From positions 128,001-192,000 of the forward strand of contig JAOPTW010000013.1 of assembly GCA_051532035.1 (NCBI GenBank): a stretch of DNA of 64,000 nt, given 5' to 3'. Positions within the stretch are counted from its first letter, which is position 1, and every line of letters begins with the position of its first letter. Shown in pieces: positions 12,001 through 15,000 of this stretch. Source of the DNA: Fibrobacterales bacterium. GTDB taxonomy: Bacteria > Fibrobacterota > Fibrobacteria > Fibrobacterales > JAOPTW01. The position numbers are program-made.

Positions 12001-15000
12001 CTCTGTATAGAGCTTAATGGTGTCTGCTAATAATTTTAATCTGGTGGGAATAAAAATATGCTCATTTATTGCATAAGAGACAATTGATGCTTGCATAAAG
12101 TCGAGCACCTGTTTGCCCTCAAACACCATAAGCCCCGTTGTATCAGGAGTTCCGTTCAGTAATACTCTATTCTCTGTAATAGTGTATTTAGATTGATTTT
12201 CTAAGGAATCTACTCTGAATATTTTGTATTCAGCAGTGAGTGTTTTTGAAAACACTGCAGTGGTACACATTAAAATTAATAAACAAGCAATATGTTTCAT
12301 GATATATAGGGGTTCATAATCTTTGTTTAAAGTTAGAAAACATTGATACAAACAGATTTTCTTATCAACCTTATTAAGATTTACGACGTCATCACTCATT
12401 ATTGCTTCAACGGTTTAGTTGAGTTTTCTTTTTGGATTATACGCCAACGCTTACCCATGGTAAACATTAACAATCTATACTGATGTTTCTACTATTAGCC
12501 TCCTGTAAACCCCTATACCATTGATACTATTATCGAGGAACAACATAATCAAATAGATGCCTCCCTTGTACTTGAGCGTTCTATTAACTGCCCTGTTATC
12601 GATTAATGTACCCTAGGAAAACACTATGCTCAAAACCATATCCTTCATCACCACATCCCTATTCATAGCATTAACCACCCAGGCATGCATCTTTTCAGAC
12701 GGGCCAACCGCTTCAAAAACTCCCCTGGCTACAGAAGAACTAACTCTGGCCTTAAAAAGTTGCCCCGACACCACCAGTACCGAAACAATTACATCTCTCA
12801 AAAAAATATCGGCAGTGAACCAATCATACCAGATTAATACCACTATCAATATCTATGATGAAACAGGAACATTTATCAGCAATGAACAATATAGCGCTAC
12901 CATAAATCCAAATGTACAATCCAATCGAAGCTTTACTCCTAATTACTATCAGCCCCTCGCCAACAAAGAATCAGGCTTTTATATTTTCAAAACAACTGTC
13001 GCCGTCGAAGGAGGAAGTGAACAAACCAGGCTTGACTGTATTTATTGGGTTGCATCCGAGTAGTCCAAAATCATCCCACTTGACTAACTGGGCAAGGTGG
13101 CTCAAATAAGCGGCCACTATACTACTCCATTCTTCCCATTATTAAAGTACCCTCATAACTACTCAGCAACAATTTTGACCTGCACACAAATCCGGAACCA
13201 TTTCTCAGCAACAATTTTGACCTGCACTCAAATCCGGAACCATTTCTCGGCAATAATTTTGCCCGGAACTCAATCCGGAACCATTTCTCAGCAACAATTT
13301 TGACCTAAACTCAAATCCAGAACCATTTCTCAGCAACAATTTAGCCCGGCACTCAATCCGGAACCATTTCTCGGCAACAATTTAGCCCGGCACTCAATCC
13401 GGAACTATTTCTCAGCAACAATTTAGCCCTAAACTCAAATCCGGAACCATTTCTCAGCAACAATTTTGACCTACACTCAATCCGGAACCATTTCTTAGCA
13501 ACAATTTTGCCCTAAACTCAAATCCGGAACCATTTCTCGGCAACAATTTTGCCCTGCACTGTAATTCCATGTACCATCCACTCATTATATTTGCCTCAGA
13601 GTTACATTCTACATAGATACCGCATCAATGGCTGATTGCACAATCACAAAGAGAGCCTATCTTGTCAAACAACCTTGTAAACTAAAACAAGAAGGATACA
13701 ATTATAGGCCCGTGTACAGCATTGAAAAATAATTTCCCAATTAATTCTGAGAGCTCCTTGTATAATTTTCATTATCAGAGTACCGTTTATGAATCGTATT
13801 GTATAAAACTTCCCTCAATGCTCAATATTCACAAATTGCTAGCCACCGATTTGCAAGGGAAAGTATCAATTTAAATAAAGTTTTATTCATGTTGTTGTTA
13901 CACAAATATCCTGAGAGACGTCTAATGTGTGTTAATTGACTGATTCTCTTTTTATTTGGCTCAGGGAATCAGTTCGCAATGTATGAGCCTATAGGGTAAC
14001 ACCATAATGACAAAGAATAATAAAGAAACAAAAACGATTGAATCTATTACACCTGAAACTTCAGCTACTGTTAATCCAATCAACTACGAAGTGATTTATA
14101 ATGAAGATCTTGATCTTATCAAAAACACAAAAATTGAAAAATACTGTAAGCCTGGTATGAAAATGGATATCTATCTCGAAGAGGCTGAAGGGTACTATGA
14201 AATTCTCATGCGTAGGTTTGATGAGATGAGCACAGAGGGCTTTAAGCAAGAGACAGCCGACCTTTTGTATCGTCGCATTGCTTCTGCTCGTATTGCTCAG
14301 GCAAATATGAATACGAAGGAAGGTGCTGAGCCTAATGAAGAGAGCTGGCCTCATATCTTTGCCGAAGCTAAAAAGTTGAGAACTCGGTTACTCAGTCGCG
14401 TTAAATTTGTGTGTGCCAACGACGCCAATCGAAAAGAGATTGTACGTAAAATATCTGACGGGAGCAGAATCAGTGATACTATTCAAGATCTTTTTGACCT
14501 CGGTAGAATTGGTAAACAGATGATTTCTGAATTAGCAGAGGTAAAGGTTACAGTGCAAGAACTAGACCGTGCTATTGAGCTTGGGTCTGTTCTTGGGAGA
14601 AAGCATAAGAGTTCAACAATTGATGGTACTACTTATTCTGAACCCCGTATCATCAGAGATACTGCGGTTACCCTATTGGAAGAGTCAATTAAATATCTTC
14701 GCACCTGGACAGAGATGGTCTATATCGAGGACAGAGAGACAAAGAGTCAATTTTACAGCAAACAATTGCGCTTAAAAGCACAGGCACAGGCACAGGCACA
14801 AAAATCAAAAACAATCATACCAGAAGATTTGCTCGAAGTTTCAATGCCTGAAGAAGAGGTCGATACTTTAATTCCTAAGCATACTCATTCAGAATCTGAT
14901 ACGGATATCGATACAAACACTGAGGAGGCATCAGACGCAGCATAGTAGGTCGTTTAACGGTGTATACTTTTAAACGCACCAGAAAAAAAGGTGAGGATTG

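What a model noticed while it worked through the whole genome (the two positions that open the first line are those of the whole stretch)
13064..14945. Orphan helical protein family, each gene paired with its own 21/42-bp phased repeat array
About 17 full-length paralogs (plus ~8 C-terminal remnants) of a ~290-aa all-helical protein with no Pfam, NCBIfam or PDB match each sit behind a 0.6-1.8 kb gene-free stretch (these make up most of the largest non-coding gaps of the genome), and these stretches carry paralog-specific tandem arrays with periods of 21, 42/43, 63 or 84 bp (e.g. 9.6 x 42 bp at C13:141162-141560 upstream of g01023). Boldest reading: each protein is a sequence-specific DNA-binding protein and the array (21 bp = two helical turns, as in iterons or the 12 x 43-bp sopC centromere of F) is its private binding platform, marking borders of variable and defence islands. 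New would be a widespread, undescribed protein/repe [...]
Evidence so far: Paralogs by blastp/tblastn; 13 of 19 members have >590 bp upstream gaps; arrays by TRF and by eye for g01023, g00874, g03571, g02924, g02002, g00829, g01973. Genome-wide TRF (period >=19, >=2.4 copies): 81 tandem loci, 17 non-coding, 12 of those with a period near a multiple of 21, and 8 of these 12 lie within 2 kb of one of the 17 family genes, which with flanks cover <2% of the genome. Relatives: arrays of period 21/42/43/63 within 1.5 kb in 7 of 9 loci of other Fibrobacterota and in 10 of 20 further loci from 12 genomes against 0 of 20 control windows 20-40 kb away on the same contigs; repeat sequences differ from locus to locus; Marinifilum loci show weak 20/21/40-bp repeats. 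No Pfam hit [...]
(Added by a program. Inside this text positions count along the whole contig: contig position 128,001 is position 1 of the stretch shown here. "Call 12" and the like, gene names such as g00115 and contig names such as C1 are that model's own, and its searches are not shown. The text may have been shortened before it was handed on; [...] marks where a part breaks off. The agent that wrote the report below was given it as the finding of a first reader that could run no searches.)

Follow-up and report, generated by a model that had tools for sequence, protein, structure and literature searches.

The report
Orphan helical gene with phased repeats
An unannotated all-helical protein gene travels through bacterial genomes together with its own non-coding array of repeats spaced two or four DNA turns apart, a pairing found in several phyla that appears undescribed and whose function is still unknown.

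Summary
Window 13162-13560 is a non-coding array of 9.6 units of 41/42 bp, and 446 bp downstream lies a 312-aa all-helical gene (14007-14945) that matches no Pfam, NCBIfam, PHROG, PADLOC or PDB sequence and no solved fold.

Array, spacer, gene and terminator form one 1.92-kb module (13121-15040), which is copied at 92% identity on another contig with sharp ends. The genome has 17 full-length paralogs and 9 C-terminal remnants. Nine of the 17 have a strong array with a period near a multiple of 21 bp within 1.5 kb, five have a weak one and three have none.

In this genome such periodic gaps are about 26 times more frequent next to family genes than elsewhere. In other genomes 17 of 28 and 11 of 20 loci carry such arrays, mostly just downstream of the gene. 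Proteobacterial and spirochaete relatives carry them too. Repeat sequences differ between loci and have no fixed orientation relative to the gene.

The best reading (about 0.37) is a duplex-DNA platform on which the adjacent protein assembles, as with iterons or centromeres. Binding is untested, the protein shows no DNA-binding motif, and the family is mostly acidic. Rival readings are an RNA partner of the type III toxin-antitoxin kind, another binding factor, and a mobilisation site.

Earlier notes of this scan report the same kind of pairing on other DNA.

The parts
13121..13161 (+). Conserved ~41-bp leader at the left edge of the duplicated module
   Evidence: Similarity to the C12 copy and to the G130 ortholog begins here, and the flanks to the left are unrelated.
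13162..13560 (.). Non-coding tandem array of 9.6 units of 41/42 bp. Each unit has a conserved block of about 34 bp that includes the palindrome TCCGGA, and a variable linker of about 8 bp.
   Evidence: TRF period 42, 88% matches, score 588. Units listed in register. Autocorrelation z 12.9-14.1 at lags 41/42/83. DNA contigs of run X1 break at both ends of the array.
13561..14006 (+). AT-rich spacer (G+C about 0.33-0.37) with the presumed promoter and 5' leader. It contains an inverted repeat, GGCTCA at 13958-13963 and TGAGCC at 13984-13989.
   Evidence: Composition. The spacer is 92% conserved in the C12 copy. The inverted repeat is kept in 5 of 5 aligned leaders of the subfamily without covariation. 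The promoter scan is not above chance.
14007..14945 (+). Gene for a 312-aa all-helical orphan protein: structured core at residues ~25-270, then a disordered acidic tail
   Evidence: ORF and translation. AlphaFold2 model with a 113-sequence alignment has mean pLDDT 85.8 and pTM 0.69, with helices only. The profile finds 1763 representative relatives at E<=0.001. An RNA-library contig lies on 14644-14795 with no mismatch.
14946..15040 (+). 3' end of the module, with a terminator-like hairpin (GGTGAGG 14990-14996 / CCTCACC 15008-15014) between an A run and a T run
   Evidence: Read from the alignment. Similarity to the C12 and G130 copies stops at 15040/15041.

Best explanation
The window holds one copy of a self-contained two-part module that duplicates as a unit. 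One part is a gene for an all-helical protein of a large uncharacterised family. The other is an adjacent non-coding array whose units repeat every two (21 bp) or four (41-43 bp) turns of the DNA helix.

I read the array as a duplex-DNA platform. Many copies of a protein, most likely the one encoded next to it, would bind the conserved core of each unit on one face of the helix and build a cooperative nucleoprotein complex, as Rep proteins do on iterons or centromere-binding proteins do on sopC or parC.

Shown: the array, the family, their linkage in cis across phyla, the module's sharp edges and its duplication.

Inferred: that the array acts as DNA, that this protein is the binder, and what the complex then does. 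Candidates are autoregulation, anchoring, or acting as a cis site for the module's own spread.
For: Linkage.
- In this genome 8 of 34 gaps near family genes have 21n periodicity at z>=5, against 6 of 662 other gaps.
- In other genomes of the phylum, 17 of 28 best-hit loci have a 21n array in their 1.5-kb flanks: 18 such arrays against 4 tandem loci of other periods.
- In 20 loci with 6-kb flanks, 11 have a near array, at a density of 2.5 per 10 kb against 0.34 farther away.
- Pseudomonadales and Dongiaceae relatives have 21/42-bp arrays starting 40-100 bp after the stop codon. Two Spirochaetia relatives have a 42-bp array starting at the end of the family core.

The gene and array move as a unit.
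- Window 13121-15040 equals C12 50709-48800 at 92% identity, with unrelated flanks.
- Genome G067 has 5 copies of a ~2-kb module at 87-95% identity, each with 22-bp periodicity about 400 bp downstream of the gene.

Signs of a duplex-DNA role.
- The period is conserved while the sequence is not.
- Units have a conserved core plus a variable linker.
- The core ACTCAAATCCGGAA is kept in the G130 ortholog while the other half of the unit changed.
- Arrays lie up- or downstream, and their strand skew has no fixed sign relative to the gene.
- No per-unit RNA hairpin is predicted.

The two 89%-identical paralogs share the same repeat unit, whereas paralogs at 51% identity or less have unrelated units.
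Against: - No DNA-binding motif or fold is recognised. Foldseek gives nothing at E<=0.001, and VIA-align gives only generic helical bundles with Z<=9.0.
- The most conserved block of the protein is acidic, and 56% of 113 relatives have pI below 6 (median 5.8).
- 3 of 17 paralogs have no array and 5 have only a weak one. 11 of 28 and 9 of 20 loci in other genomes show none by TRF.
- Array units are already unrelated between paralogs that are 51% identical. This fits fast co-evolution, but it fits equally a role in which the sequence does not matter to this protein.
- Three clear 21n arrays in this genome (C55, C104, C9) have no family gene nearby.
- Unchecked earlier notes of this scan describe similar arrays next to unrelated orphan genes.
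- Binding was not and could not be tested here.
Confidence: 0.37

Rival explanations
1. RNA partner. The array is transcribed and its repeat units bind and control the helical protein, as the repeat-array antitoxin RNAs of type III toxin-antitoxin systems do, or as the RCd22 RNA does with the all-helical AbiF protein.
For: - Private repeat arrays next to a stand-alone gene in defence-rich surroundings are the hallmark of type III systems. An all-helical toxin with a repeated RNA motif has a precedent (passages of PMC12373285).
- A fixed unit length within a family could reflect the geometry of an RNA-protein complex.
- Neighbours include HipA, Cas1/Cas2, PIN, TIR, AIPR, HicAB and PLD nucleases.
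- In two Spirochaetia relatives the array lies inside the transcribed ORF.
Against: - Arrays lie downstream in 14 of 18 cases in relatives. In this genome's subfamily they lie 447-750 bp upstream.
- Strand skew relative to the gene has no fixed sign.
- No terminator-like site lies between the array and the gene.
- There is no match to ToxN, AbiQ, CptN, TenpN or Abi_2, and no conserved histidine for a HEPN motif.
- Many arrays are degenerate (62-80% matches) and long (up to 26 units).
- Folding gives only pairings between units.
Confidence: 0.15
2. Another binder, or a generic cis element. The phased arrays are a general regulatory or architectural DNA element of variable-region genes in these phyla. 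They are bound by some other factor, and the helical family is merely their most frequent neighbour here.
For: - Arrays without a family gene exist in this genome (C55, C104, C9).
- Unchecked notes of this scan report 21-bp arrays beside unrelated orphan genes.
- The protein lacks any DNA-binding signature and is often acidic.
- In one paralog the array runs to within 20 bp of the start codon, where a promoter element would sit.
Against: - The array sequences differ at every locus, so no single sequence-specific factor could read them all.
- The gene and array stay adjacent across at least three phyla while everything around them changes.
- They are duplicated together.
- In this genome 11 arrays are beside family genes against 3 clear non-family ones.
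Confidence: 0.2
3. Selfish mobile module. The array is the cis site, and the helical protein the trans factor, of an undescribed mechanism that copies or moves the 2-kb unit (replication, recombination or gene capture). This would explain its multiplicity and its place at borders of variable DNA.
For: - The 1.92-kb copy has sharp ends, and G067 has 5 module copies.
- Several genomes returned 9 to 12 matches, and at most 12 candidates per genome were scored.
- There are nine 5'-truncated remnants.
- Synteny between G000 and G130 breaks exactly at module edges in both loci examined.
- One paralog sits where an integrase would sit beside a cassette-like array.
Against: - No target-site duplication or terminal inverted repeat is seen at the edges.
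- The edges of the G067 copies are ragged.
- There is no catalytic motif or fold of any known transposase, recombinase or initiator.
- No relatives were found on plasmids, phages or viral contigs.
- Copies are 87-95% identical, so they are not recent.
Confidence: 0.18
4. By-product. The arrays are slippage-prone minisatellites without function that happen to persist in the long gene-free stretches around these genes.
For: Arrays are degenerate, vary in copy number, are absent from some members, and turn over quickly.
Against: The period is restricted to multiples of about 21 bp, whereas other non-coding repeats of the genome have periods of 15, 24, 27, 33, 39, 45 and so on. The pairing recurs across phyla with unrelated sequences. 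A core is conserved within units.
Confidence: 0.05

Closest known systems
Iteron-regulated replicons (Rep initiator next to 17-22-bp direct repeats, e.g. R6K, RK2, pSC101, P1, F; recalled)
   Same: Tandem direct repeats are phased at whole helical turns, lie beside a single gene, are private to each element, and adjoin an AT-rich stretch.
   Different: - The protein has no Rep family match, and its model has no beta strands.
- There is no DnaA-box-like site in the module.
- The module is chromosomal, with 17 copies per genome.
- No relatives were found on plasmids or phages.
- Arrays reach 26 units.
Partition centromeres with their binding proteins (sopC/SopB of F: 12 x 43 bp, each with a short dyad; parC/ParR of R1 and pSK41; recalled)
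   Same: The window's 9.6 units of 41/42 bp, each with a small palindrome (TCCGGA), closely resemble the layout of sopC. The repeats differ from element to element.
   Different: No ParA, ParM or TubZ-type NTPase occurs among 169 neighbouring proteins scanned. The protein has no ribbon-helix-helix or ParB match. The module is not on a plasmid.
Type III toxin-antitoxin systems (toxIN, cptIN, tenpIN) and AbiF/RCd22 (PMC12373285, passages read)
   Same: A stand-alone gene is paired with a private short tandem repeat array, in a defence-island setting. AbiF shows that the protein partner can be all-helical.
   Different: The array is mostly downstream and has no fixed orientation. Units are 21/42 bp rather than 34-50 nt. 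There are up to 26 often degenerate copies. No family match and no terminator between array and gene.
BrickBuilt MITE/minisatellite of Porphyromonas gingivalis (PMC4596501, abstract and outline read)
   Same: An intergenic minisatellite of about two helical turns (23 nt), present many times per genome in a related group of phyla.
   Different: BrickBuilt is one sequence repeated at 19 sites with leader and tail ends and no linked protein gene. Here every locus has its own unit sequence and a linked gene of one family.

Membership tests
Iteron replicon (Rep + iterons) | Tandem direct repeats of about two helical turns next to the gene | tested here: met
   Periods of 21/42/43/63/84 bp are found beside 9 of 17 paralogs. 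The window array has units of 41/42 bp.
Iteron replicon (Rep + iterons) | Initiator belonging to a Rep family (e.g. Pfam Rep_3; winged-helix domains, recalled) | tested here: not met
   None of the 113 family members scanned has a Rep family among its Pfam hits at E<=1. The model has helices only and no strands. The fold searches are inconclusive rather than excluding.
Iteron replicon (Rep + iterons) | DnaA boxes beside the repeats | tested here: not met
   The pattern TTWTNCACA (E. coli-type consensus, recalled) matches 3 times in the window, and none of the matches lies within 13000-15100. The box of this phylum may differ.
Iteron replicon (Rep + iterons) | Residence on a plasmid or phage, or autonomous replication | tested here: not met
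   tblastn of the protein finds no match in 72,556 plasmid records or 50,697 phage records, nor in viral contigs. Replication itself cannot be tested here.
Partition cassette (centromere + binding protein + NTPase) | Adjacent ParA, ParM or TubZ-type NTPase | tested here: not met
   None was found among 84 neighbouring proteins at 14 loci of this genome or among 85 at 20 loci of other genomes.
Partition cassette (centromere + binding protein + NTPase) | Centromere built of phased repeats | tested here: met
Type III toxin-antitoxin | Repeat array upstream of the toxin gene on the same strand, separated from it by a terminator | tested here: not met
   In the window the array is upstream but 446 bp away, with no terminator-like site between them. 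In relatives 14 of 18 arrays are downstream. Orientation is not fixed.
Type III toxin-antitoxin | Toxin of the ToxN/AbiQ, CptN or TenpN family (or Abi_2 for AbiF) | tested here: not met
   No PADLOC hit for the window protein or a paralog. None of these families appears among the Pfam hits listed for the 113 members.
Type III toxin-antitoxin | Array transcribed and processed to unit-length RNA | not testable with these tools
   The only RNA library found is very small and is held as contigs. None of its contigs lies on the array, which proves nothing.
BrickBuilt-type MITE | The same repeat unit and the same leader and tail at all genomic copies | tested here: not met
   Units are unrelated between loci unless the proteins are about 90% identical.
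Pfam DUF6261 (PF19775) | Match to the family model | tested here: not met
   There is no match in the whole genome at E<=1, and DUF6261 is not among the families listed for the 113 members. The only link is a language-model similarity of 0.81-0.82, below the level to be trusted.

The most novel reading that the evidence does not exclude
The helical family is a new class of sequence-specific DNA-binding proteins with a new all-alpha fold. Each member assembles on its own private array of sites spaced two helical turns apart. The resulting gene-plus-array unit is an autonomous chromosomal module spread across many bacterial phyla. It sits at, and may help create, the borders of variable and defence islands, for example as an anchoring, insulating or gene-capture platform.
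Probability: 0.15. Interest if true: 0.85.

Novelty: categorically new. Interest (0 to 1): 0.72.

Why it matters
If the pairing works as read here, it would add a widespread and so far unnamed protein/DNA-site system to bacterial chromosomes. It has at least 1763 representative proteins at 50% identity, is present in Fibrobacterota, Pseudomonadota and Spirochaetota, and by weaker leads occurs in Bacteroidota and Myxococcota.

It would explain a class of long gene-free stretches and minisatellites that break short-read assemblies. It would provide a natural set of orthogonal protein/site pairs. It could also bear on how variable and defence islands are bounded and rearranged. Even without a mechanism, the association is strong enough to justify a simple binding experiment.

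Tried and rejected
Searches that found nothing:
- Sequence and family searches of the protein gave nothing usable: Pfam, NCBIfam, PHROGs, PADLOC and PDB sequences.
- Fold searches with two models gave only generic helical bundles.
- Fused forms were sought among longer proteins; none was found, which is weak evidence.
- Plasmid, phage and viral-contig searches found no relatives.
- Rfam on 10500-15700 gave only sub-threshold leader and sRNA hits away from the array.
- No tRNA gene lies in window 1-30000.
- The promoter scan was not above chance.

Leads that did not hold up or stayed open:
- The DUF6261 lead from the protein atlas was not borne out by HMM.
- A search for a motif shared between arrays of different loci gave only matches at chance level. 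The best were 10-11 nt on the opposite strand among 561 pairs.
- RNA evidence is thin. One small metatranscriptome from the same sample holds a 152-nt contig inside the gene and nothing on the array. It is held as contigs only, so it says nothing about array transcription.
- The 5' leaders of the 17 paralogs fold slightly better than controls (mean -10.4 against -8.1 kcal/mol, p=0.004). In the window's subfamily (5 leaders aligned) the conserved element is an inverted repeat without covariation.

Steps that failed or were not run:
- A self-association test of the protein (complex prediction, two copies) was never run, because the queue was full at every attempt.
- The search for related loci with the family alignment failed because no stretch was conserved enough.
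Full report
**What is in the window.** The window is G000:C13:128001-192000.

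After a 145-aa lipoprotein-like ORF (12626-13063) comes a gene-free stretch of 943 bp. TRF finds in it an array at 13162-13560: period 42, 9.6 copies, 88% matches, score 588. Written in register, the units alternate between 41 and 42 bp. Because of this no reading frame survives, and the 68-aa ORF listed over the array is spurious.

Each unit has a well-kept block of about 34 bp containing the palindrome TCCGGA, and a variable linker of about 8 bp. The two halves of a unit are not alike, so the period really is four helical turns rather than a doubled 21-mer.

A 446-bp AT-rich spacer follows, and then the gene 14007-14945 for a 312-aa protein. Behind the gene lies a hairpin flanked by an A run and a T run, which I read as a two-way terminator (sequence). 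The scanning tool does not list it because of its 11-base loop.

**The unit is a module.** blastn of the region against the whole genome shows that window 13121-15040 (1.92 kb) recurs on contig C12 (50709-48800) at 92% identity. Both ends are sharp: 41 bp before the first repeat, and just behind the terminator. Beyond these points the flanks are unrelated. The two proteins are 89-91% identical and the two arrays use the same unit, although C12 also holds a second unit variant in its middle.

A genome of the same genus (G130) carries the ortholog of the C12 copy, with the same flanks. Its array keeps the core ACTCAAATCCGGAA but has changed the other half of the unit, and its gene has lost the first ~110 codons.

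A second comparison gives the same picture. A 5.07-kb block on C13 consists of two divergent family genes, a 93-aa gene, a 324-aa gene and a PLD-type nuclease gene. It is 91-93% identical in G130, and both flanks are unrelated. The left breakpoint lies about 14 bp beyond the stop codon of the outer family gene, and the right one lies within the last few bases of the PLD gene.

In a more distant genome (G067), five loci share a ~2-kb module around the family gene at 87-95% identity. Three copies were checked for periodicity and each shows a 22-bp signal (z 5.3-6.1) about 400 bp downstream of the gene. The edges of these copies are ragged. I saw no target-site duplications or terminal inverted repeats at any edge.

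**The family.** An HMM iterated over the genome's ORFs converges on 17 full-length members of 234-320 aa and 2 fragments. A six-frame search adds fragments up to nine, and all nine are C-terminal pieces.

Identity to the window protein is 19-51%, apart from the C12 copy. Six columns are invariant among the 17: E59, R125, D161, R217, F249 and R255.

Nothing known matches:
- Pfam gives only sub-threshold noise.
- NCBIfam, PHROGs and PADLOC give nothing.
- PDB sequences give nothing, searched with the single protein or with a profile.
- Pfam scans of 38 and of 113 relatives show no shared family.

A profile search of 1.84 billion representative proteins finds 1763 relatives at E<=0.001 and 274 at E<=1e-30, mostly 245-260 aa long. 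The ten clusters I looked up are small and come almost entirely from metagenomes. The only names seen are 'hypothetical protein', in Fibrobacterales, Reichenbachiella and Spirochaetota.

Within the phylum, 35 of 201 genomes have the family. That is 0 of 78 in one large family of genomes and 18 of 46 in another. Several genomes returned 9 to 12 matches, and at most 12 candidates per genome were scored.

Close relatives of two representatives lie in Pseudomonadales, Dongiaceae and Spirochaetia MAGs.

**Structure.** AlphaFold2 with 17 sequences gave mean pLDDT 76.6. With 113 sequences it gave 85.8 and pTM 0.69, with the core at residues 25-270 above 90. The model has ten to twelve helices, no strands, and a disordered acidic tail.

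Foldseek against the PDB gives nothing at E<=0.001. VIA-align against 48,161 chains gives at best Z 9.0 over 100 residues, to unrelated helical bundles. The tool's own notes put that within the noise for helical proteins.

The most conserved block is acidic. The family's median pI is 5.8, with 56% of members below 6, although about ten basic positions are conserved. I see no helix-turn-helix that could be argued from the sequence.

**Is the gene-array link more than chance?**

In this genome:
- TRF at score >=50 finds arrays of period 21, 42, 43, 83/84 or 86 upstream of seven members, and one of period 20/40 downstream of an eighth.
- An autocorrelation scan finds a strong signal (z>=7) at such lags for 9 of 17 members. 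Five have a weak signal (z 4.1-5.3) with top lags among 21, 42, 63 and 83. Three have none.
Of those 19, 13 have a 21n period, and 7 of the 13 lie within 2 kb of a family gene. The family genes with flanks cover 1.6% of the genome. Three more family arrays were hidden by spurious ORFs in my crude gene set.
- Over all 696 gaps of at least 300 bp, 8 of the 34 near family genes are periodic at z>=5, and all 8 have 21n lags. Of the other 662 gaps, 6 have 21n lags and 19 have other lags.
- Of the arrays without a family gene, four touch a contig end and one (C89) uses the window's own unit. This leaves three clear exceptions: C55, C104 and C9.
- 15 of 17 members have an upstream gap of at least 639 bp, whereas 6.6% of all gaps reach 590 bp. 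The claim that these gaps are most of the largest in the genome is not borne out: they are 4 of the 30 largest.

In other genomes:
- Taking the best-hit locus of each of 28 other genomes of the phylum, with 1.5-kb flanks, 17 have a 21n array. That is 18 such arrays against 4 tandem loci of other periods. 14 of the 18 lie downstream of the gene and 4 upstream.
- In 20 loci with 6-kb flanks, taken from eleven genomes that partly overlap the first set, 11 have a 21n array within 1.2 kb. The density is 2.5 per 10 kb near the gene against 0.34 farther away (12 of 18 arrays in 21% of the sequence; binomial p=4e-5). The far zone includes coding repeats.
- In the Pseudomonadales and Dongiaceae relatives the array starts 40-100 bp after the stop codon. 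In two Spirochaetia relatives a 42-bp array starts exactly where the family core ends and is read through as 14-aa repeats in a 358-aa ORF.

The common layout of the wider family is therefore gene followed by array. The window's subfamily, with the array 447-750 bp upstream, is the exception.

**Properties of the arrays.** Among 34 gene-array pairs (from 64 genes examined), repeat units are unrelated unless the proteins are about 90% identical. The remaining best matches (10-11 nt among 561 pairs) are what chance allows.

Many arrays are strongly skewed in G against C. The sign of the skew relative to the gene varies: for upstream arrays it is negative in 11 and positive in 4, and for downstream arrays negative in 7 and positive in 9.

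Folding three-unit stretches of the window array gives only pairings between units through the TCCGGA palindromes (z -2.8 and -2.1 on the sense strand, -0.7 and -0.1 on the other).

These features are a conserved pitch, a free sequence, a core plus a variable linker, and either side and either orientation. They fit a site array read on duplex DNA better than an RNA.

**Surroundings.** No neighbouring gene is conserved across the family. Five paralogs in this genome share DNA downstream of the gene. In three of them (C24, C13 314207, C23) Pfam shows a full operon of a ~93-aa gene, a 324-381-aa gene and a PLD nuclease of the DrmC/NucT kind.

Elsewhere the neighbours include a KAP/QatA-like NTPase, HicAB, ParE, HsdM, HipA, Cas1/Cas2, PIN, an integrase, HNH, DUF559, AIPR, TIR, an SF1 helicase and a YhgA-type transposase. 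By my reading, 16 of the 34 loci scanned have at least one such gene. I ran no control for this count.

I confirmed only the run of small same-strand genes there.

**Expression.** One public DNA run holds 69% of the sampled words of the stretch. Its contigs break at both ends of the array. A very small metatranscriptome from the same sample has a 152-nt contig, without mismatch, inside the gene (14644-14795), and nothing on the array. Both runs are held as contigs only, so this is at most a hint that the gene is expressed.

**Interpretation.** I commit, at about 0.37, to the array being a duplex-DNA platform on which the adjacent protein assembles. This works like iterons or plasmid centromeres, but the module belongs to none of those families:
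- no Rep family match,
- no partition NTPase among 169 neighbouring proteins,
- no DnaA-box-like site in the module,
- no relatives on plasmids or phages.

The chief weaknesses are the absence of any DNA-binding signature, the acidic composition, the members without arrays, and unchecked notes of this scan that similar arrays accompany unrelated orphan genes.

The rivals are:
- an RNA partner of the type III toxin-antitoxin kind, for which the all-helical AbiF with its repeated RNA motif is a precedent (passages of PMC12373285);
- a generic element read by another factor;
- a cis site for the module's own spread;
- functionless minisatellites.

**Novelty.** Five full-text searches found no description of this family or of the pairing:
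- BrickBuilt/minisatellite/Porphyromonas gingivalis;
- 21-bp repeats/tandem/helical turns/defense island;
- type III toxin-antitoxin/tandem repeats/antitoxin RNA/new families;
- DUF6261;
- iteron-like/chromosomal/tandem repeats/hypothetical protein/Bacteroidetes.

The nearest item in print is the BrickBuilt minisatellite MITE (PMC4596501, abstract and outline read). It is one 23-nt unit repeated at 19 sites without a linked gene.

Earlier notes of this scan describe the same kind of gene-plus-array pairing in this genome and in Bacteroidota, Zixibacteria-like, Acidobacteria and archaeal windows. They are leads, not evidence, and no word-level sequence link to them was found.

Noticed in passing
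window 15379-15434: A repeat of about 55 bp with at least 17 other copies in this genome and about 10 in the same-genus genome G130. It lies just behind an 81-aa secreted-protein-like ORF (15074-15319). The DNA of that ORF (15037-15358) is 84% identical to C11 130684-131005. It may be a junction or boundary repeat of the variable islands.
   Followed up: partly
window 13958-13989: An inverted repeat, GGCTCA-N20-TGAGCC, lies 18-49 nt upstream of the start codon. It is kept in sequence in 5 of 5 aligned leaders of the subfamily, without covariation. This looks more like an operator than an RNA hairpin.
   Followed up: partly
G000 contigs C42 (5205, 12039, 17947), C89, C7, C44, C11, C13: All nine family remnants are C-terminal pieces, with variable 5' breakpoints at HMM positions 150-247. 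Three lie about 6 kb apart in the same orientation on C42. The reason why only 3' ends survive is unexplained.
   Followed up: partly
L085 1571-2728 and L086 2501-3595 (Spirochaetia MAGs): The 42-bp array begins exactly where the family core ends, and it is in frame. The annotated 358-aa proteins therefore carry 14-aa repeats that may or may not be translated.
   Followed up: partly
L003 5004-10067 (G000 C13 312373-317436): A block of two divergent family genes, a 93-aa gene, a 324-aa gene and a two-domain PLD nuclease (DrmC/NucT-like). It is conserved as a 5-kb unit in G130 with unrelated flanks. It may be a defence-type operon headed by a family member.
   Followed up: partly
L001 7047-9941 (G000 C12, across the array from the paralog): A 965-aa protein with a KAP P-loop NTPase domain, a QatA-like match and a weak N-terminal WYL match.
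   Followed up: no
G000 C89 32382-33216: An orphan degenerate array (period 104 x 6.6, then about two copies of the window's own 42-bp unit). No family gene lies within 10 kb.
   Followed up: no
window 7581-7696: A 45-bp x 2.6 tandem repeat lies inside the 1003-aa PKD-domain ORF 7523-10534. It encodes the repeated C-terminal NNS(L/M)MNQVLQNNIAI motif.
   Followed up: no
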